Of a stretch of 15,999 nt of DNA, positions 3,532-15,902 are shown piece after piece. The stretch's first letter is position 1. The number at the start of each line of letters is the position of its first letter. The position numbers were made by a program, and so were the translations under genes. A model generated the notes under the pieces. That model did no database searches. It worked only from the letters and a program-made list of their open reading frames with translations, and was not told where the DNA came from. Source of the DNA: Candidatus Methylomirabilis sp. (GTDB taxonomy: Bacteria > Methylomirabilota > Methylomirabilia > Methylomirabilales > Methylomirabilaceae); assembly GCA_041498975.1 (NCBI GenBank), contig JBGQJI010000051.1, forward strand, positions 1-15,999, read 5' to 3'.

Positions 3532-3950
3532 ATGAGGGGGGATGCTTTCAGGTGTTCATGCGCCTTGACCAGGAGGTCGCGGGAGTTCTTGAAGGTCAGC
3601 CGTTCGAGCGCGGTGTCGTAGGGCAGCCAGTCGAACCCGATGTGCTCGGAGGAGAGGGCGACTTCGGAGTAAGTAGTTTCTGCGAGAAAGTAGATGACGA
3701 CCTTGAAGATCCCGATCCCTTTCTGCCGGAAAAAATAGCGAAGCGTCTCCTTATAACCGTCCAGGAATCGGACCTGGGGGATCCCGGTCTCCTCCTTCAG
3801 CTCTCGCCTGGCCGTCTCCTGGGCATCTTCACCGGCCTCGATATGCCCTTTTGGGAAGTCCCAGTGACCGGACTCGTAATGGAGGAGGAGAAAATGGGGC
3901 TGCGGCGCTCGCCGGAACAGGATCACCCCTGCCGAGATCTCGCGCGGCAT
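3528..3950 (-). CDS. Nudix hydrolase, probable asymmetric diadenosine tetraphosphate (Ap4A) hydrolase
   Basis: Complete Nudix box GHIEAGEDAQETARRELKEETGI; FLLLHY..GHWDFPKGH and LSSEH..FDW resemble NUDT2/archaeal-type Ap4A hydrolases; AAGGAG RBS. Confidence 0.85.
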   Translation of the reverse strand: MPREISAGVILFRRAPQPHFLLLHYESGHWDFPKGHIEAGEDAQETARRELKEETGIPQVRFLDGYKETLRYFFRQKGIGIFKVVIYFLAETTYSEVALSSEHIGFDWLPYDTALERLTFKNSRDLLVKAHEHLKASPLI

Positions 3951-4052
3951 GTTGCGTCAGCTCCTTTCTGTCACTTTCCCCTGTCCCTAGCACGCACGAA
4001 GCGCGCTGGACAGTTACACTTCTTGCTTCCCTCAGAACCTGGGTTCATGCTA

Positions 4053-4058
4053 TATAAT
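4053..4058 (+). promoter_or_regulatory. Perfect sigma70 -10 box immediately before the ATG (probable leaderless transcript)
   Basis: TATAAT at 4053-4058, five bases before ATG4064; no SD sequence and no convincing -35. Confidence 0.6.
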
Positions 4059-4063
4059 ATCAC

Positions 4064-4381
4064 ATGAGCAAACATCCGGCGTTTGATCGTCCCTTCACCG
4101 TTTACGGTATCAACTTGGTGGTCCGGGTCCTCCGGGAACCGCCGGATACCCTGACGCTGCACTGCCCGCGCGGCGCCTCCATCAGATACGGCAGTGTGGT
4201 GGCGAGCGGTGACGGTTTTGATGAGGGGTCCAACTCCTTCCGAGAAATGCCCCCGCTGGAAGCGATCGTCGCCTTCGAGGAGGCGTCCGAGGGGGTGGAA
4301 GGGCATTACTTCTACCGGGACAACGAGGAGTATCGGGTCCTCTCCCTGGATTCGATCATCATCGCCTTTCCGCAGCCGTAG
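4064..4381 (+). CDS. Divergent GroES/Cpn10-like protein (orphan co-chaperonin fold)
   Basis: Aligns by eye to E. coli GroES: GSVVASGDG~GEVLAVGNG, IVAFEE~IVIFND, DNEEYRVLSLDSII~DNEEVLIMSESDIL; 105 aa. Confidence 0.7.
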   Translation: MSKHPAFDRPFTVYGINLVVRVLREPPDTLTLHCPRGASIRYGSVVASGDGFDEGSNSFREMPPLEAIVAFEEASEGVEGHYFYRDNEEYRVLSLDSIIIAFPQP

Positions 4382-9006: not shown

Positions 9007-9410
9007 TTCTTTTTTGTCCCGCCGCGATTGTACTCAAGTTCAGCCGAGCTTGCCAGATTGATGTTGGATTGCAATGCAACGTCTCCAATTGCGGGGCAGA
9101 GCTGGGCTAAATCCTATCCGCCAGGAAACCGGATTCCATATGCAGCGCAAAAGCCTCCGGATAGTTAGAGGTGGGTTACTAAGGTGTCAAAGGTGTGAGA
9201 GGAACGTCGCGTTTGGCAAGTAGATGATCGGGCTTTCAGCCCTGTACCCTTTGGTGCAGATTAGTAGTTGTAATCCACACGGGTCACCTGATCGTGGGAG
9301 GCGTTTGAGACAGAGCTTGACACCTTGCGGAGGCGAGATGGTGCCTTCGTAGGTAGTCGTGATGGTCCGCGGGTGAGCATAGGAGTTCAGCCCTCCCCCG
9401 CAAGTTCAGT

Positions 9411-9426
9411 TGGCGCACTATATGCA
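9411..9426 (+). promoter_or_regulatory. Putative sigma54 (-24/-12) promoter
   Basis: TGGCGC-ACTAT-ATGCA; exact GG-N10-GC spacing, close to the TGGCAC-N5-TTGCA consensus. Confidence 0.6.
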
Positions 9427-9501
9427 TAACGCCCTCTTGGGCCGACCCGGCCTGCGAGGGCGTTGGTACTTTAGGGCTCCGGGAGGGGAGGAGGCCCTGA
9501 T

Positions 9502-9567
9502 ATGAGGCGGGTGGGCCTGCAAAGGCTGAAGGACCTCCGCGACAAGACCTTCATCGGGTCACCATGA
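9502..9567 (+). CDS. Putative 21-aa small ORF (MRRVGLQRLKDLRDKTFIGSP)
   Basis: Strong SD GGGGAGGAGG 7 nt before ATG9502, downstream of the sigma54 motif; no recognisable homology. Confidence 0.3.
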   Translation: MRRVGLQRLKDLRDKTFIGSP

Positions 9568-9719
9568 TGCGGCCACGAGAGAGCCGCTGAGGCGGCCGTC
9601 GGAATAAGCGGAAGGTCGCTGTGACGCACGTCAGTAAGGAGCGGGGGACGGCACCGACACCCGGCTCAACACCAATGGACTTGGGCTAGAACAGCCCACC
9701 AGCAGGCAGGAGGAAACCG

Positions 9720-11825
9720 GTGTTGACAACACCGCACAGGATGGCACTGGGGGACCCGGAGCGTCGGGGCTGGGTGCCATTCTCTATTGATGGTCACGGT
9801 CCTCGATGGGCAGTTCGACTCTTGCTGGGTGTATGGCTTAGTCTAATATTGGTCGCTCGCCAAGGGAACGCAGCCGCCGAGGGGGTTCCAAGGGAGCTTT
9901 ATCAGAAAGCCTTTAGCGAGGGATCGGTAAGAGTGATTGCGCAGCTCCGGGTCCATACGACAGCGGAAGGACATCTTGAGGGCGCCCAAGCCGTAAGGTC
10001 ACAACGAAACGACATTGCTTCGGTTCGATCCACTGTACTCGCAGAGCTGGGAGGCAGTAGCCACCGAAAGATCCGAGAGTTCGAGACGATCCCCTTTGTG
10101 GCCTTGGAAGTGGGGCTTGATGCTCTATCCAAGCTTGAAGAGTCGATGAATGTCGTGGCGCTAGAGGAGGACCGCCTTGAGAGCCTCTTGCTAAGCCAAA
10201 GCGTCCCGCTCATAGGGGCCGACCAAGCCTGGACGGACGGCTTTGATGGCACGGGCATGGTGGTGGCCATTCTCGATTCCGGCGTCGATAAGACTCTTGC
10301 CTTCCTTTCAGGAAAGGTAGTGGAAGAGGCGTGCTTTTCCGCAAATGGGAGCTGCCCGAATGGTCTGAGCTCGCAGACCGGGAGCGGCGCAGGCGTCCCG
10401 TGCACCTATGCACCGAATGGCTGTCGGCACGGCACGTTCGTAGCTGGGATCGCGGCTGGGGCGGGGTCTAGTTTTTCTGGCGTGGCCAGGGGTGCCCGGC
10501 TTATCGTTGTTCAGGTTTTTTCTCGGTTTATAGGAGGCAATTGTACCGGCGAAGGCGAAGACCCCTGTGCGAAATCTTTTGTGTCCGATCAGATCGCGGG
10601 CCTGGAGCGGGTCTTTGCTCTGAGGGCTCAATACGCTATTGCAGCAGTCAACATGAGCATAGGCAGCGGAAGATTTACTTCTCCCTGTGACAGCACGCAA
10701 GCGGCCAGCAAGGCGGTGATCGACAACCTGCGGTCGGTAGGCATAGCCACAATCGTTGCATCAGGGAATGACGGATTCCCCGATGGCATCGATGCACCGG
10801 CCTGCATCTCCACCGCTATCAGTGTCGGGTCCAGCACCAAGGCCGATACTGTCTCGTCCTTCTCAAACTCTGCGTCCTTCCTTTCGCTCTTGGCCCCGGG
10901 GGAGTCGATCATCTCATTCGTCCCCGGCGGTGGCCTCGCCATCGGTAGTGGTACTTCGTTTGGGGCGCCCCACGTGACTGGGGCCTGGGCCATTCTGAAG
11001 CAAAGGAACCCTAGTGCAACGGTTGGTGAGGTGCTGGCGGCTTTGACGAGTACCGGGCTACCAATCACCGACCCGAAGAATGGCATCACCAAACCACGTA
11101 TTCGGGTAAACCTGGCCCTTCACACTTCTTCGCCGCTTGCCGCTCAAGCTTTCGTCACCCGCCTCTACGAGCAGGTCCTCAACCGCGAGCCTGACTCCGA
11201 CGGCCTGCAGGGCTTCATCGACCAGATCGCCGAGTTCGGCTCGGTGGTCCCGACCGTGCTCGCCTTCTTCCAGTCGCAGGAGTTCCTGGGCCGCAATACT
11301 TCCAACGCCCAGTTCCTCACGATCCTCTATCACACTTTCCTGGACCGGGACCCCGACCCCAGTGGCTTCAATGCCTTCCTCGCGGATCTGCAATCGGGCC
11401 TTCGGACCCGGGACAACCTCCTTGACATCTTCCTCGACTCGCACGAGTTCGCCAGCCTGGCGAGCTTCCTGCCGCCCCAGGACCCGGTGACCGCCTTCGT
11501 CACCACCCTCTACGTCCGGATCCTGGGTCGGGGGCCAGACCAAGCGGGCCTCCAGGGCTCCGTGACGCAGCTCGAGCAGACCCGCACGGTCTTGCCCACG
11601 GTGAACTGCTTCCTCGCCTCCCAGGAGTTCCTGGATCGCCACGCGACCAACACTGAGTTCGTCACGCTGCTCTACCGGGTCTTCCTCAACCGCGTTCCAG
11701 ATGCCGCTGGCCTGACGGGATTTGTGGCCACGCTCAACCAGGAGGCCGTCACTCGAGCCCAACTCGCGTCACAGTTCGCCGCTGCGCCCGAGTTCCAAGC
11801 AATCCAGCATCAGTTGTTCCCCTAG
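9720..11825 (+). CDS. Secreted S8 (subtilisin-like) serine peptidase with C-terminal DUF4214-like repeats
   Basis: AGGAGG RBS before GTG9720; hydrophobic signal-like segment; propeptide; triad ILDSG / HGTFVAG / GTSFGAPHV and oxyanion ASGND; four FV..LY...L.R.PD..G repeats. Confidence 0.9.
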   Translation: MLTTPHRMALGDPERRGWVPFSIDGHGPRWAVRLLLGVWLSLILVARQGNAAAEGVPRELYQKAFSEGSVRVIAQLRVHTTAEGHLEGAQAVRSQRNDIASVRSTVLAELGGSSHRKIREFETIPFVALEVGLDALSKLEESMNVVALEEDRLESLLLSQSVPLIGADQAWTDGFDGTGMVVAILDSGVDKTLAFLSGKVVEEACFSANGSCPNGLSSQTGSGAGVPCTYAPNGCRHGTFVAGIAAGAGSSFSGVARGARLIVVQVFSRFIGGNCTGEGEDPCAKSFVSDQIAGLERVFALRAQYAIAAVNMSIGSGRFTSPCDSTQAASKAVIDNLRSVGIATIVASGNDGFPDGIDAPACISTAISVGSSTKADTVSSFSNSASFLSLLAPGESIISFVPGGGLAIGSGTSFGAPHVTGAWAILKQRNPSATVGEVLAALTSTGLPITDPKNGITKPRIRVNLALHTSSPLAAQAFVTRLYEQVLNREPDSDGLQGFIDQIAEFGSVVPTVLAFFQSQEFLGRNTSNAQFLTILYHTFLDRDPDPSGFNAFLADLQSGLRTRDNLLDIFLDSHEFASLASFLPPQDPVTAFVTTLYVRILGRGPDQAGLQGSVTQLEQTRTVLPTVNCFLASQEFLDRHATNTEFVTLLYRVFLNRVPDAAGLTGFVATLNQEAVTRAQLASQFAAAPEFQAIQHQLFP
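11142..11822 (+). repeat. Internal tandem duplication of a ~115-aa DUF4214-like unit
   Basis: AQAFVTRLYEQVLNREPD (11142) and VTAFVTTLYVRILGRGPD (11487) are 345 nt apart; each unit has VxPTV..F..SQEFL.R...N..F.T.LY..FL.R.PD. Confidence 0.8.
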
Positions 11826-12206
11826 GAGTTGAAGGTTGCTGCGAGCCCTCGGTGCGAGTTACACCCCCGCAACCTACAGCGAGGGCCTGTGATTACTTCT
11901 CCCACTCTTAGCCGGTGCCGGTAGCAAACGCATTCCGTTCTTACATGCCGCCCTAGATAACTTCCGCTAGACGCTAGCTTGTAGGCTCGCCCGTGCCCAT
12001 CGCGCGGAGAGAGTCGTCCGAAGCTATCTACTCGGGGTGACCATCTTGATGAAGGGGGGATTCCCGTGATTCAAGGAGGCCTTTAACGGAGATGCGGCGT
12101 TGGGAAGGGCGGGCGGTCTCCTAATTGTCAATGCTGGTAAAGCCAAAAAGCCGGATTACGCTTCGGGAGTTAACCCTGCGGTCGCGAAAGGCTTCAAGGA
12201 GACGTC

Positions 12207-13169
12207 TCACAGGTATTGGCCGTAGCGGATCTTTTCGATCACCTCCTTGGTCCGGCGATACTGCTCGATCACCTTCTGGACGTCCTCGGTGGAAACCAGG
12301 CCGGGCTGCTGGCCGCTCCCCTCCAGCCGGACTTTCTCCTCCAACGCCCGCTGGATGATCTCGGCGATGTCGGCCCCGCTCAGCTTCACCATCCGGGCGA
12401 TGACCGCATCGTACTGCAGCTCCAGGAACAGCTTCCGCCCCGCCCTCGCCTCTGCCCTGGCCTGATGGATGCGAAAGATCTCCGCCTTCTCTTCCGCCTC
12501 TGGCAGTCCGACCTCGATAAAGCGGTCGATGCGCCCGGGCCGGACAAGCGCCGCATCGATGGCGTCGATCCGGTTGGTGGACGCCACAACCATCAGTTGT
12601 CCGGTGTCGCCCAGATCGTCCAGGTTCTCGGCCATGGTGTTGACCAGCCGCCCGCCCGCTGCCCTGGCCTCTTCGGGAAGGAAGAGCCGCTCGACGGAGA
12701 GGGCATCCAGTTCGTCGAGGAAGAGGACGGTTCGCCCGTTCTCCTTGACAGCGGTGAACACTTCCTGAAAGAGCTCTCCCGACTCGCCGCGTAACTTCGA
12801 CACGATATTGTTGAGTTTGAGGTGCAAGAAGACCGCCCCGGCCTCGCGGGCCAGCGCTTTGCTGAGGAGGGTCTTCCCGGTGCCGGCGGGGCCATACAGA
12901 AGCACCCCCTTCGGCGGCTTTGTCCCCCAGCGGAGATGGAGGTCCGGGGACTTCAAGGCAAAGACGAGTCCTTCGATCTCTCGTTTGGGACCTGCCAAGC
13001 CGCCGATTTCCTTCAGGGAGGTCTCGGGCGTCATGGTCATCTCGACCTTCCCGCGCAGGTCGCCGTATTTCTTTTCCAGCTTCACTAGGAAGTCTTCCAG
13101 CCGCCGCCGGAGCGCCTCGCGAGTGGCTGGAGGCGGAAGGCTCAATGGGCTCAATCGCTCTGGTTTCAT
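12207..13169 (-). CDS. Single-module AAA+ ATPase (Cdc48/PAN/ARC-like clade) with C-terminal GQYL proteasome-interaction motif
   Basis: IGGL, PKGVLLYGPAGTGKT (Walker A), LFLDELD (Walker B), STNRIDAIDAALVRPGRIDR (SRH), SGADI; ends RYGQYL*; GGAG RBS 9 nt before ATG13169 (320 aa). Confidence 0.9.
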   Translation of the reverse strand: MKPERLSPLSLPPPATREALRRRLEDFLVKLEKKYGDLRGKVEMTMTPETSLKEIGGLAGPKREIEGLVFALKSPDLHLRWGTKPPKGVLLYGPAGTGKTLLSKALAREAGAVFLHLKLNNIVSKLRGESGELFQEVFTAVKENGRTVLFLDELDALSVERLFLPEEARAAGGRLVNTMAENLDDLGDTGQLMVVASTNRIDAIDAALVRPGRIDRFIEVGLPEAEEKAEIFRIHQARAEARAGRKLFLELQYDAVIARMVKLSGADIAEIIQRALEEKVRLEGSGQQPGLVSTEDVQKVIEQYRRTKEVIEKIRYGQYL

Positions 13170-13234
13170 CGGCCTGATCTCCGAATGAGCTGGCACCATC
13201 GGGCTCGAGTCCCCTGCAAGCAAGGACCGGGCTG

Positions 13235-13263
13235 ATACTATGGTCTGACCTGAACGAAGGCAA
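13235..13263 (-). promoter_or_regulatory. Putative sigma70 promoter of the AAA+ ATPase gene
   Basis: On the minus strand, TTGCCT-N17-TAGTAT. Confidence 0.55.
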
Positions 13264-13286
13264 GCGAAAACGGGAGCGCGGGCTGT

Positions 13287-13565
13287 TCAGCGCTTCCAGC
13301 CTCGCTTGAGCCATTCATACCCTTCCCGCCCGCTCAGGTAGATCCCGGCGTAGAAGATGCCCCAGCTTAGGAGAGAGCTCAGAAGGGTGACGCCTATTTT
13401 CATTGTGTCTGAAAACGGAAGGAACGGAACCACAGAATAGGCCGGGTAGACCAGGAAGCTTGCAGACATCAGGGTGATGCCCGCGATGAACCGAGCACGA
13501 TGGAGGGCGCCCTTTGGTCGCCTCTCATCCCCACGAAAAACTTCAGGGTTTATGGAGTTCCTCAC
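13287..13565 (-). CDS. Small two-TM membrane protein (resembles 'transporter suffix domain' proteins)
   Basis: Two hydrophobic helices joined by VPFLPFS...K, then G..L.GREG and a basic C-terminus; start codon uncertain. Confidence 0.6.
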   Translation of the reverse strand: MRNSINPEVFRGDERRPKGALHRARFIAGITLMSASFLVYPAYSVVPFLPFSDTMKIGVTLLSSLLSWGIFYAGIYLSGREGYEWLKRGWKR

Positions 13566-13838
13566 GTGAACTCGAACCGCGGTCCGTCGACTTCAGATCG
13601 CCGAATCCTCTCGCCCGTGGCAACCCAAAGCGCGCAAGGCAGGCGTCCGATGCCGACTGGCCCGGCCACGGGATGACCCCTCTTCAAATTCCGGGACCCG
13701 GCATCGACGATGAGGGAGGATGGAACCCCCTGGGGTCTGGGCGGAACTCATAAGAAGCGGGTTCTGGCGCAAGACACCGTCGGGAAGAGATCCACAGGCC
13801 GAAACACCGGAAGGGCTGAGGGCACAAACCCGAAGGCG

Positions 13839-15902
13839 TCAGCTCCTGCTGGGGTGGATCGTTAGCTCCTGACCCACTCGGAGCTTGGCCCGTTGAGTCA
13901 GGTCATTCCAGCGGCGAAGCTCGTCCGGCGTAACGTCATGGGCTCTGGCGATCTCCCAGAGCGTATCGCCCCGCTTGACCCGATACCGAGCCGGCGTCCT
14001 CGTCGTGGGAGCAGGAGAACCAGCAGCAACCTCCACGCTCGGCCTCGCGATCTGAGTAACAACCCGCAACGGCTGTCCAGGTTGGAGCTTGGTCCCGTGT
14101 CCCAGGTCGTTCCACCGGCGCAACTCCTCGGGCGTCACGGCGTAGGCATTGGCGATGCCCCAGAGCGTGTCCCCGCGCTTGACGATGTGGATGGGGAAGC
14201 GGGCGGGAGCGGACGCCTTGGGAGCTGAGGCTGCCGCCGTCCTGGAGGGGGTGAGTGGACCGGAGGCGATGGCTGGACCCGCCGATCCGTTGCTTTGCGG
14301 TAGTTGAAGCACCACCCCCACCCTTAACGTGTCGCTGACTTTCATGCCATTCAGTCCAGCGAGCACGGCCGCGCTGGTCCGATGGCGGGACGCGATCTTT
14401 CCCAGCGTGTCGCCCGCCCTCACGAGATACTGCTGCCCAGGACCGCGGACAACCCCTCGGCTCCTCCCCTGAGCGGAGTCGAAGGAGCGACGTCTGGGAA
14501 GCTGATCCAGGTTGGCCATCAAGAGCGGCTTGGTTCCTGGCGGAAGGAGGATCTCAGAATACGAGGAGTTCGGAGGTGTGATCCCTCGAAGCATTGCCGC
14601 GTTCAGATCACGGATCTCGTCGGGGTGGACGTTCACAGCCCGCGCAATGGAAGGCAGCTCGATGGCGCCAGGGACTGTCGCCCGCTCCACTTCCCAGGGC
14701 GTTTCAGTCGGTGGAGTGAAGCCGTACTGCTGGGGATTCTTGGATATAATGGTGATGGCCATGAAGGCGGGGACGAAGAGCTGTGTTTCCCTCGGGAGCT
14801 TCAACGACCAGTAGTCGTTGATCCCCTGCCGATTGATGGCCCGCTGAACCCTCTGCTCTCCCGCGTTGTAAGCAGCCAGCGCAAGCTCCCAGGACTTGAA
14901 CATCCCGTAAAGGTCCCTCAGGTAGGCGGCAGCCGCCCTGGTCGCCTTCTCCGGGTCGCGGCGCTCATCGTACCAGTGGGTGACCTTCAAACTATACCGT
15001 TGCCCCGTCGATTTAATAAACTGCCAGATCCCCATCGCTTTCGCCCTGGAGAAGGCGCGATACTTGAAGCCGCTTTCGATATACGCTAGATTGACGAGGT
15101 CGAGCGGAAGGCCTTTTTCCTGGAAAATGCCCCGCATCATCGGCAGATATCGACCCGACCGCTGTAAGGCCTCGTTGATCAGTTTGAACTTCCGAGTCCG
15201 AAAGAACTCGATGTAGGCCTTCACCCTCTCGTTAAGCACGACCGGCACATCGTACAAGGCGATATCCGACACCGGCTCGGGCTGAACTTGGGTGGATTGG
15301 ACGGCAGGTTCTTCATCGGGATTCACCAGGTTAGGGGTCTCATCCGTATCGGCCTCGTCCTCTTCTTTGTCTGTCTGGCCATCTCCATCTGGAGAGACGG
15401 CAGAGAGCGCTGCCCTGAGGGCGGCCGTCTCCTCAACCAGCTTCAGGCGGAGGCCATCAGGGGCCGTCTCCTCCGGAAGCTTCGAGAGGATACCGATGGA
15501 AGCCTCCAGCTCTCCCTGCGCCTTCACCCGGTCTCCCGTCTCCAGCGCTTTCAGGCCCTGGGCTGAATGACTCAGCGCCTTCTGAAGGGCCTGTCCTGAG
15601 TCCAGTCGAAGCCCGTGCTGAGTCTCGTCGAAGCGGGCCTGCTCCTGTTCGCTTTGCCGGGAGATGGCAGTATCCGAAACGGCTGTCGGAGGAGGGAGGG
15701 TCTGAGCATTTTTCGATGAGAAGAGAGCGGTGGCAATCTGATTCCCGGAGCGATTCAGCGGCTCTTGCGTCGGGGCGGGGCTGCTGACGCTGGCCGAATC
15801 CTCGGAAGGGGTGGCAGGGGTGGAAATCAGGAGCGGCAAGAGAAGGGTGAGGGTGGCGGCGACCACCACTCCCATGGGCCTTCGGAAGAACCGAGCACTC
15901 AT
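13839..15902 (-). CDS. mltD: MltD-like lytic murein transglycosylase with three C-terminal LysM domains
   Basis: SLT motifs YIESGF (catalytic Glu), [21 protein letters not shown]; LysM repeats [30 protein letters not shown]-terminal signal-like helix; AGGAGG RBS. Confidence 0.9.

What the first reader, a model, noticed from the sequence alone, without database searches (positions are those of the whole stretch)
12207..13169. Minimal AAA+ ATPase with the GQYL proteasome-docking tail: candidate new 20S proteasome regulator
Seen: the protein ends ...IEKIRYGQYL*, has intact Walker A/B, sensor-1 and Arg-finger motifs, and has only about 45 residues (one amphipathic helix) before the AAA module. 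Established: GQYL is the C-terminal HbYX-type motif by which Mpa/ARC and Bpa/PafE bind and gate the bacterial 20S core. ARC/Mpa (~600 aa) and PAN have a coiled coil plus OB domain(s), and Cdc48/Cpa have two AAA rings. This 320-aa architecture fits none of them. It has its own promoter and is not next to pup/ubact/pafA/dop/prcAB genes in this window. Inference: a stand-alone alternative ATPase cap or gate-opener for a bacterial proteasome.
Basis: partly seen in the sequence, partly recalled or inferred. Interest (0 to 1): 0.85.

Follow-up and report, generated by a model that had tools for sequence, protein, structure and literature searches.

The report
Minimal AAA ATPase with GQYL tail
A small, well-conserved ATP-driven ring protein of Methylomirabilis-type bacteria ends in the same four residues that known bacterial proteasome activators use to dock on the proteasome, so it is probably an undescribed proteasome partner, although binding has not been tested.

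Summary
A 320-aa gene lies on the MINUS strand (13169 to 12207). It encodes a classical AAA ATPase that ends ...EKIRYGQYL.

- **Family:** It belongs to a tight family of about 310 aa. Names, where given, are mostly Methylomirabilota/NC10.
- **Tail conservation:** Among the 120 best relatives (60-97% identity), 119 end GQYL and 1 ends GHYL. All four roughly 310-aa clusters in an all-length search keep the tail; the next-nearest relatives do not.
- **Fold:** The AF2 model (pLDDT 89.6) is closest to the isolated AAA module of archaeal PAN. It has one N-terminal helix and no coiled-coil/OB domain.
- **Not a fragment of arc:** it scores 101 bits against a cut-off of 505 on the ARC model.
- **20S in the genus:** Supplementary tables of PMC10130057 annotate arc, dop, prcB, prcA, pup and pafA in two Ca. 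Methylomirabilis MAGs.

Docking on the 20S core is therefore plausible and novel, but it remains inferred. It was not tested whether the window's own genome has a 20S, whether the family co-occurs with 20S, or whether the two bind. The complex predictor was unavailable. The "own promoter" was not confirmed. In this species the pore-loop aromatic residue is replaced by Leu.

The parts
12207..13169 (-). Gene for the 320-aa single-module AAA ATPase (stop codon 12207-12209 included)
   Evidence: Translation; Pfam AAA E 1.5e-32; 120 close homologues of 308-328 aa
13179..13182 (-). GGAG Shine-Dalgarno-like element 9 nt before the ATG
   Evidence: Read from the sequence
13235..13263 (-).
   Evidence: Read from the sequence; scan found 0 sites in 11700-14000
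13065..13130 (-). N-terminal helix, residues 14-35, the only element before the AAA module
   Evidence: AF2 model, pLDDT about 91-93 in this stretch; L24 invariant in A1
12870..12893 (-). Walker A GPAGTGKT (residues 93-100)
   Evidence: Sequence; K99 171/171
12786..12797 (-). Pore-loop-1 K-L-R-G (residues 125-128). Most of the family has K-W-Y-A/G; the aromatic residue is replaced by Leu here.
   Evidence: Position 126: W 144, F 15, L 8, G 4 of 171. The 8 with L are the window and its relatives at 95% identity or more.
12711..12728 (-). Walker B VLFLDE (residues 148-153)
   Evidence: D152 171/171, E153 170/171
12531..12575 (-). Second region of homology: sensor-1 N199 to Arg fingers R210/R213
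   Evidence: N199 143/171, R210 136/171, R213 171/171
12225..12290 (-). Long C-terminal helix after the lid (residues 294-315)
   Evidence: AF2 secondary structure
12210..12236 (-). Conserved C-terminal nonapeptide EKIRYGQYL; GQYL is 12210-12221
   Evidence: E312, I314, G317, Y319, L320 in 171/171 and Q318 in 170/171. That set was selected by a ..QYL/HYL ending, so the unbiased count is 119/120 GQYL among the best hits.

Best explanation
The gene encodes a catalytically competent classical AAA ATPase that consists of little more than a PAN-like AAA module: an alpha/beta domain and a lid, preceded by one helix and followed by one helix and a five-residue tail.

Inferred mechanism: like its relatives it forms a hexameric ring. 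The C-terminal GQYL tails insert into the pockets between alpha subunits of the bacterial 20S proteasome that Methylomirabilis encodes, as the tails of Mpa/ARC and Bpa/PafE do. This opens the gate. The protein would then be a second ATP-dependent cap alongside the canonical ARC. Because it lacks the coiled-coil/OB domains that bind Pup, it would probably be Pup-independent.

Shown: the gene, the motifs, the fold, the conservation of the tail, the restriction of the family mainly to Methylomirabilota, and annotated Pup-proteasome genes in two genomes of the genus.

Inferred: hexamer formation, docking, gate opening and substrate translocation.
For: - **Tail conservation.** GQYL is kept in 119 of the 120 best relatives at 60-97% identity. 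It is kept in all four roughly 310-aa 50%-clusters at 47-62% identity, whereas 22 of the 22 other listed hits under 600 aa lack it. Both genomic orthologues, L001 and L002, have it.
- **Known role of GQYL.** It is the motif by which Mpa/ARC and Bpa insert into the alpha-ring pockets. Bpa itself was found by a genome search for this C-terminal motif (passages of PMC8223512; PMC12288473).
- **Sequence and fold.** The best NCBIfam models are PAN-type (183.6 and 181.3 bits). The AF2 model (pLDDT 89.6, pTM 0.87) is closest to the PAN AAA domain 3H4M and the PAN-Rpt5C chimera 3WHK (target-normalised TM-score 0.90-0.91).
- **ATPase motifs.** They are essentially invariant in 171 family sequences.
- **20S in the genus.** PMC10130057 supplementary file 3 annotates arc-x-dop-prcB-prcA plus pup and pafA in DAMOB1, and prcA-prcB-dop, arc, pup and pafA in DAMOB2. 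All are labelled expressed above the median. The main text places both MAGs in Ca. Methylomirabilis.
- **Dop/PafA in NC10.** PMC7947786 reports Dop/PafA homologues in candidate division NC10 draft genomes.
- **Possible orthologue.** Each MAG has exactly one gene annotated K13525, the same label JGI gives family members.
Against: - No physical or in-silico binding test was done; the complex predictor was unavailable.
- The window's own genome could not be searched for prcAB. Co-occurrence of the family with 20S across Methylomirabilota, Rokubacteriales above all, is untested. PMC7947786 calls Dop/PafA outside Actinobacteria and Nitrospirae 'very sporadic'.
- No proteasome gene lies near the gene in the window. 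None was found among the 21 larger ORFs (over 90 aa) scanned in each of L001 and L002, within up to 10 kb either side.
- In this species and its relatives at 95% identity or more, the pore-loop-1 aromatic residue is Leu (KLRG; 8 of 171). This weakens the case for a strong translocase here.
- Sensor-1 Asn and the first Arg finger vary in part of the family (143 and 136 of 171).
- Conservation extends over nine residues (EKIRYGQYL), more than pocket docking is known to need. The modelled free tail is only about 5 residues after a confident helix.
- The K13525 genes in DAMOB1/2 have different neighbours from the window, and no sequence was available, so orthology is unverified.
Confidence: 0.55

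Rival explanations
1. It is a free-standing AAA remodelling ATPase that does not work with the proteasome. The conserved EKIRYGQYL end would serve another purpose: contact with another ring or adaptor, or control within its own hexamer. The match to GQYL would be convergence.
For: No proteasome gene is adjacent in the window, L001 or L002. Nine residues are conserved, not four. The related sister group of 430-560 aa shares the preceding ...K.IGF stretch but not the Y-L end, so part of the conservation is structural. Family-wide co-occurrence with 20S is untested.
Against: An exact GQYL at the very C-terminus of a PAN-like AAA module, kept in 119/120 relatives, in a genus that encodes a 20S, is hard to explain otherwise. 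Bpa, which was found by the same logic, proved to be a real activator (PMC8223512 passage).
Confidence: 0.27
2. It docks on the 20S through GQYL but is not an unfoldase. It would act as an ATP-controlled gate-opener, or as a competitor of ARC for the alpha ring, passing only unfolded proteins or peptides.
For: There is no N-terminal substrate-binding domain. Pore-loop-1 is KLRG in this species.
Against: 159 of 171 family members keep an aromatic residue (W or F) at that position, and the Walker/SRH motifs are intact. These are the hallmarks of a working translocase. The Leu variant is confined to one recent lineage.
Confidence: 0.12
3. It is the ATPase of an IetAS-like anti-phage pair, working with the neighbouring S8 subtilase.
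For: PADLOC IetA models match the AAA protein (best 91.1 bits), and a PADLOC 'subtilase' model matches the adjacent S8 protein at 72 bits. NCBIfam IteA scores 73.7 bits.
Against: - The IetA/IteA scores are well below those for PAN (183.6), CDC48 (162.9) and FtsH (140.6), and below the IteA cut-off of 510. They reflect generic AAA similarity.
- The two genes are convergent.
- The S8 protein has a signal-peptide-like N-terminus and DUF4214 repeats.
- No S8 gene was found among the ORFs scanned beside the orthologues in L001/L002.
Confidence: 0.03
4. It is a truncated fragment or pseudogene of a canonical arc/mpa gene.
For: It shares the GQYL end and an AAA module with ARC.
Against: The pup_AAA model scores 101 bits against a cut-off of 504.75 and matches only the AAA core, residues 45-235. 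More than 100 clusters have the same 308-328 aa length and a conserved N-terminus. A separate arc gene is annotated in both Methylomirabilis MAGs. No protein of 561-2000 aa shares the tail region (weak evidence).
Confidence: 0.01

Closest known systems
[quoted passage not shown]
   Same: It gives the best sequence-model and structure match for the AAA module. It belongs to the classical AAA clade. It has a penultimate-Tyr C-terminal docking tail, the HbYX principle (PMC8223512 passage).
   Different: There is no coiled coil and no OB domain. It scores 183 bits against the cut-off of 500. It is bacterial. The tail is the bacterial GQYL, not HbYX proper.
Mpa/ARC (bacterial proteasomal ATPase)
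   Same: It has the C-terminal GQYL, an AAA module and a bacterial host with a Pup-proteasome system.
   Different: ARC has a coiled coil, two OB domains and a C-terminal beta-grasp domain (PMC12288473 passage; the architecture is partly recalled). Here none is present, and the pup_AAA score is 101 against 504.75. A separate arc gene exists in the genus.
Bpa/PafE (ATP-independent bacterial proteasome activator)
   Same: It has GQYL at the C-terminus and lies outside the proteasome locus. Bpa was discovered by the same motif logic (PMC8223512 passage).
   Different: Bpa is not an ATPase and forms dodecameric rings. There is no sequence relationship: no Bpa-type family appeared among the Pfam hits.
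Cpa (Cdc48-like protein of actinobacteria)
   Same: It is an AAA protein reported to interact with the bacterial 20S alongside Mpa (PMC8223512 passage).
   Different: Cpa has two AAA rings (recalled) and lacks GQYL. This protein has one ring and has GQYL.
Unnamed sister group of bacterial single-AAA proteins of 430-560 aa (P0135, P0139, P0143 and others)
   Same: Identity is 45-53% over the AAA module, lid and C-terminal helix. NCBIfam gives the same generic profile of PAN/CDC48/FtsH hits.
   Different: The sister group has an N-terminal region of about 200-280 aa with no Pfam family. It ends ...K.IGF plus a variable extension instead of GQYL.

Membership tests
Classical AAA ATPase (Pfam PF00004) | Match to the family model above its gathering score | tested here: met
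   113.3 bits against 21.2, residues 89-222
Classical AAA ATPase (Pfam PF00004) | Walker A Lys, Walker B Asp-Glu, sensor-1 Asn and Arg fingers of the second region of homology | tested here: met
   K99, D152/E153, N199 and R210/R213 are present and conserved in 171 relatives
PAN (NCBIfam NF003069 / TIGR01242) | Score at or above the curated cut-off (500 bits) | tested here: not met
   183.6 and 181.3 bits; only model positions about 100-373 (the AAA part) are matched
PAN (NCBIfam NF003069 / TIGR01242) | N-terminal coiled coil plus OB ring | tested here: not met
   Only one helix (14-35) precedes the AAA module; no N-domain family was found
Mpa/ARC (NCBIfam TIGR03689 pup_AAA) | Score at or above the curated cut-off (504.75 bits); OB domains | tested here: not met
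   101 bits, residues 45-235 only
Mpa/ARC (NCBIfam TIGR03689 pup_AAA) | C-terminal GQYL | tested here: met
Bacterial 20S proteasome activator (functional class: Mpa/ARC, Bpa) | Conserved C-terminal GQYL docking motif | tested here: met
   119/120 relatives; 4 of 4 roughly 310-aa clusters
Bacterial 20S proteasome activator (functional class: Mpa/ARC, Bpa) | Occurs only in genomes that encode prcA/prcB | tested here: inconclusive
   There is genus-level support only. Two Ca. Methylomirabilis MAGs are annotated with prcA/prcB/arc/dop/pup/pafA. The window's genome and the other family-bearing genomes could not be searched.
Bacterial 20S proteasome activator (functional class: Mpa/ARC, Bpa) | Binds the alpha ring and stimulates degradation, dependent on the tail | not testable with these tools
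IetA/IteA anti-phage ATPase | Score at or above the cut-off (510 bits) and an operon with an IetS protease | tested here: not met
   73.7 bits. The neighbouring S8 gene is convergent, its protein looks secreted, and it hit a generic 'subtilase' model rather than IetS.

The most novel reading that the evidence does not exclude
Methylomirabilota (NC10/Rokubacteria-type bacteria) have their own proteasome cap. It would be a roughly 310-aa hexameric AAA ring stripped to the motor module, plugging into the bacterial 20S with GQYL tails and feeding or gating it independently of Pup and of ARC. That would be a fourth class of bacterial proteasome regulator, and the smallest ATP-dependent proteasome activator known in any domain.
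Probability: 0.4. Interest if true: 0.78.

Novelty: new variant of a known kind. Interest (0 to 1): 0.66.

Why it matters
The bacterial proteasome regulators named in the reviews read here are Mpa/ARC, Bpa/PafE and Cpa, and those reviews centre on Actinobacteria. A conserved GQYL-bearing motor-only AAA ring in Methylomirabilota would matter in three ways.

- It would show that proteasomes outside Actinobacteria have lineage-specific regulators.
- It would give a minimal system for asking what an AAA ring needs in order to dock, open the gate and translocate without coiled-coil/OB domains.
- It would open a Pup-independent, ATP-dependent degradation route to direct test.

No paper in the library describes it. 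All 20 listed of the 23 papers containing 'GQYL' concern Mpa/Bpa or unrelated peptides. Searches for proteasome with Methylomirabilis, Rokubacteria or NC10 found nothing relevant.

Tried and rejected
- **Complex prediction.** The job asked for two copies of a Swiss-Prot actinobacterial alpha subunit plus residues 281-320 of the family alignment. The queue was full three times, then the tool was declared unavailable. Nothing was folded, so this gives no evidence either way.
- **Genome-contig scan with alignment A1.** Only 2 of 79 loci (L001, L002) are family members. The rest are archaeal or other AAA proteins at 31-44% identity.
- **BFN/DUF151 gene as a missing N-domain or adaptor.** This gene sits directly upstream of the orthologue in L001/L002. 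I considered this because plant DUF151-UVR proteins are enriched in a CLPC1 trap (PMC8889267). I rejected it as unlikely: both proteins begin with a signal-peptide-like hydrophobic stretch, the two loci are syntenic and so give a single observation, and the window has no such gene.
- **IetAS-like defence pair with the S8 protease.** Rejected.
- **Fragment of arc.** Rejected.
- **Search for longer proteins sharing the tail region 271-320.** None was found among 41 candidates (weak evidence).
- **Window synteny in the DAMOB MAGs.** The mltD genes there are flanked by cutA-dnaK and hypothetical genes, not by an AAA gene. The K13525 genes remain only candidate orthologues.
- **Literature that gave nothing.**
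  - PMC7203096: none of the terms 20S proteasome, UBact or Methylomirabilis occurs in the held first 300,000 characters.
  - PMC7947786 supplement.
  - PMC12138975 supplement.
  - PMC8780371: no supplement readable.
  - Searches (apart from PMC7947786; apart from PMC10130057).
- **Other scans.** Rfam and tRNA scans of the window found nothing. One search failed on a wrong frame and was not repeated.
- **Closed collections.** The genomic context of the many metagenomic family members therefore stayed unchecked.

Full report
**What is there.** The coordinates 12207-13169 hold a real gene, but it reads on the minus strand. The + strand translation is broken by stops. The minus-strand frame is open from a TTG at 13223 and contains an ATG at 13169 that is preceded by GGAG at a 9-nt spacing. 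Close orthologues begin MKPER.../MTPER..., which fits the ATG and gives 320 aa. The protein ends ...TKEVIEKIRYGQYL*. A longer ORF in another minus-strand frame (12121-13314, 397 aa) has no family match and is the usual GC-rich shadow ORF (window GC 0.58-0.65).

**Identity of the protein.**
- Pfam finds one AAA domain (PF00004, residues 89-222, E 1.5e-32) and nothing else above its cut-off.
- The NCBIfam ranking is PAN-type models first (183.6 and 181.3 bits), then CDC48 (162.9), FtsH (140.6), the ARC/Mpa model pup_AAA (101.0), CdvC (95.8) and IteA (73.7). All are far below their curated cut-offs of 500-1008 bits, so no named family claims it.
- Against PDB sequences, the best matches are single AAA modules of VAT, p97 and Cdc48, and the PAN AAA domain (6he4_H, E 2.9e-42, query residues 43-283).
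- An AlphaFold2 model built on a 59-sequence alignment (A2) is confident: mean pLDDT 89.6 and pTM 0.87. It has a disordered stretch at residues 1-8, one helix at 14-35, the alpha/beta domain, the four-helix lid, a long helix at 294-315 and a short lower-confidence tail.
- Foldseek places it closest to the isolated AAA domain of PAN (3H4M) and the PAN-Rpt5C chimera (3WHK), with target-normalised TM-scores of 0.90-0.91. FtsH, p97 and Rpt subunits follow.

**Catalytic motifs.** Walker A (GPAGTGKT), Walker B (LFLDE), sensor-1 (N199) and the Arg fingers (R210, R213) are present. I aligned 171 family sequences. This set was selected as 280-340 aa and ending ..QYL or ..HYL, so counts for the last three residues are circular. 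The counts are:

| Residue | Conserved in |
|---|---|
| K99 | 171/171 |
| D152 | 171/171 |
| E153 | 170/171 |
| R213 | 171/171 |
| N199 | 143/171 |
| R210 | 136/171 |

One departure matters. Pore-loop-1 is K-W-Y-(A/G) in most members (W 144, F 15 of 171) but K-L-R-G in the window protein. The 8 sequences with Leu are the window and its relatives at 95% identity or more, while the 89%-identical P0006 still has Trp.

**Is the tail conserved?**
- A word-indexed search of 5.8 billion clusters found 2,611 relatives at E of 0.001 or better among 8,000 scored candidates. The 120 best are 308-328 aa and 60-97% identical. Of these, 119 end GQYL and 1 ends GHYL.
- An exhaustive HMMER search of 1.84 billion 50%-identity representatives, with no length filter, listed 150 best hits. 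The four single-module hits of 308-314 aa (P0120, P0129, P0134, P0157; 47-62% identity) all end GQYL. None of the other 146 does. That includes the 22 other hits under 600 aa, which form a sister group of 430-560 aa ending ...K.IGF....
- The tail is therefore coextensive with this roughly 310-aa family.
- No protein of 561-2000 aa shares the last 50 residues (weak evidence).
- Source names, where given, are Ca. Methylomirabilis sp., candidate division NC10, Methylomirabilota, two 'Deltaproteobacteria bacterium' MAGs and one 'Acidobacteriota bacterium' MAG. The two nearest ESM-Atlas clusters (110 and 314 members) are commonest in Methylomirabilota.
- The window protein is 96% identical to a Ca. 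Methylomirabilis sp. entry.

**Genomic context.**
- In the window, the gene is convergent with a secreted-looking S8 subtilase carrying three DUF4214 repeats (9720-11825, +). It lies downstream of a 39-codon hydrophobic ORF and an MltD-like LysM/SLT gene (13839-15902, -).
- The other window genes are an FAD oxidoreductase, an SDR, an amino-acid permease, a GNAT, a ribokinase and a nucleoside hydrolase. None is proteasomal.
- The sigma-70 scan found no promoter between 11700 and 14000. I can see only an 8-of-12 match at 13263-13235.
- My single genome-contig scan was swamped by the Walker-A pattern and gave only two family loci. These are L001 (an uncultured bacterium) and L002 (Ca. Rokuibacteriota), and they are syntenic with each other.
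- In both, the orthologue ends EKIRYGQYL. Its start lies 2 nt after the stop of a BFN/DUF151-domain gene, and a 4HBT thioesterase and an ABC transporter follow.
- No proteasome family appeared among the 21 ORFs scanned in each locus.
- The BFN proteins start with a signal-like hydrophobic segment, so I do not regard them as partners.

**Does the organism have a 20S?** I could not search the window's genome. The literature gave an indirect answer.
- PMC7947786 (passages read) reports Dop/PafA homologues 'very sporadically' in draft genomes of other phyla, including candidate division NC10.
- PMC10130057 gives per-gene annotation and expression tables for two MAGs that its main text assigns to Ca. 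Methylomirabilis: DAMOB1, near M. oxyfera, and DAMOB2, near M. lanthanidiphila.
- I searched and read rows of its supplementary file 3, which was cut when stored. DAMOB1 has arc (00838, K13527), a hypothetical gene (00839), dop (00840), prcB (00841, K03433) and prcA (00842, K03432), plus pup (02005) and pafA (02945).
- DAMOB2 has prcA (02543), prcB (02544), dop (02545), arc (02679), pup (02143) and pafA (01182). All are labelled above the median TPM.
- These are the authors' automatic annotations, and I did not see the sequences.
- Each MAG has exactly one gene annotated K13525 (VCP/CDC48-type): DAMOB1_00178 at 1.90x the median TPM and DAMOB2_00559 at 0.52x. Their other 'ftsH' paralogues are true FtsH (K03798) or a y4kL-type AAA.
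- JGI gives family members the same 'transitional endoplasmic reticulum ATPase' label, so these are candidate orthologues. However, their neighbours differ from the window's and orthology is unverified.

**Interpretation.**
- GQYL is the motif by which Mpa/ARC and Bpa insert into the pockets between 20S alpha subunits. Bpa was itself discovered by searching a genome for this C-terminal motif, and it occurs only where the 20S does (PMC8223512 passages; PMC12288473 passages).
- Three facts together make docking on the 20S the most economical reading (confidence 0.55). The tail is exact and almost invariant. It sits on a PAN-like motor. The genus is annotated with a bacterial 20S.
- A canonical ARC is also annotated, so this protein would be an additional cap, not a replacement. 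Lacking the Pup-binding coiled coil, it would presumably act on other substrates or simply gate the particle.
- The mechanism beyond the sequence facts is inference. That covers the hexamer, tail insertion, gate opening and translocation.
- The Leu in pore-loop-1 of this species, the nine-residue rather than four-residue conservation, and the absence of any binding or phyletic test are the main reasons for caution.

**Novelty.**
- No family model claims the protein.
- The 'GQYL' full-text search returned 23 papers. The 20 listed concern Mpa, Bpa/PafE, Cpa or unrelated peptides.
- Searches for proteasome with Methylomirabilis, Rokubacteria or NC10 found nothing on such a protein.
- I rate it a new variant of a known kind (bacterial proteasome activators), conditional on the docking being real.

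**Not checked.**
- The later sheets of the cut supplementary file were not visible.
- bioRxiv supplements were closed, though none bears on a claim here.

Noticed in passing
window 9720-11825 (+) with 12207-13169 (-): A 701-aa S8 subtilase lies convergent to the AAA gene. It has a signal-peptide-like N-terminus and three DUF4214 repeats. PADLOC matches the AAA protein to IetA (91 bits) and the protease to a generic 'subtilase' model (72 bits). This looks superficially like an IetAS defence pair, but orientation, apparent secretion and lack of conservation argue against it.
   Followed up: partly
L001 6425-7060 and L002 9174-9722 (+), directly upstream of the AAA orthologues: A BFN/DUF151 'bifunctional nuclease' domain gene ends 2 nt before the ATG of the GQYL-AAA gene in both Rokubacteria-type loci. 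The BFN proteins start with a hydrophobic signal-like segment. Plant DUF151-UVR proteins are enriched in a CLPC1 AAA+ trap (PMC8889267). The two loci are syntenic, so this is one observation.
   Followed up: partly
window 12786-12797 (-): Pore-loop-1 reads KLRG instead of the family's K-W-Y-A/G. The Leu variant occurs only in the window and its relatives at 95% identity or more (8 of 171), so it is a recent change in this species group.
   Followed up: yes
proteins P0135, P0139, P0143, P0146, P0152, P0154, P0159, P0162 and others: These form a sister group of bacterial single-AAA proteins of 430-560 aa. They are 45-53% identical over the motor and have an N-terminal region of about 200-280 aa that matches no Pfam family. 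Their C-terminus is ...K.IGF plus a variable extension instead of GQYL. Neither their function nor the organisms they come from were identified here.
   Followed up: partly
PMC10130057 supplementary file 3, rows DAMOB1_00838-00842 and DAMOB1_02005: In the Methylomirabilis MAG, an unannotated gene (00839) sits between arc and dop, where pup usually lies. The gene annotated pup is elsewhere and is very highly expressed (33.7x the median). There may be two Pup/UBact-like genes.
   Followed up: no
PMC10130057 supplementary file 3, rows DAMOB2_01061-01067 and DAMOB1_00256-00259; window 13839-15902: In both MAGs, the MltD-like gene that neighbours the AAA gene in the window lies next to a cutA-dnaK-hsp20 run. 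In DAMOB2 this continues into dnaJ, hspR and htpX. The window ends 97 nt beyond the mltD start, so whether the same cluster follows here is unknown.
   Followed up: no
window 13287-13406 (-): A 39-codon hydrophobic ORF (MKIGVTLLSSLL...) lies between the MltD-like gene and the AAA gene. It has no family match.
   Followed up: no
window 3552-4067 and 4064-4381 (+): Two consecutive ORFs of 171 and 105 aa overlap by 4 nt and have no Pfam or NCBIfam match. They lie between an SDR gene and an amino-acid permease gene.
   Followed up: no
window 9169-9719: About 550 nt upstream of the subtilase gene contain no ORF of 60 aa or more, no Rfam match and no tRNA.
   Followed up: no
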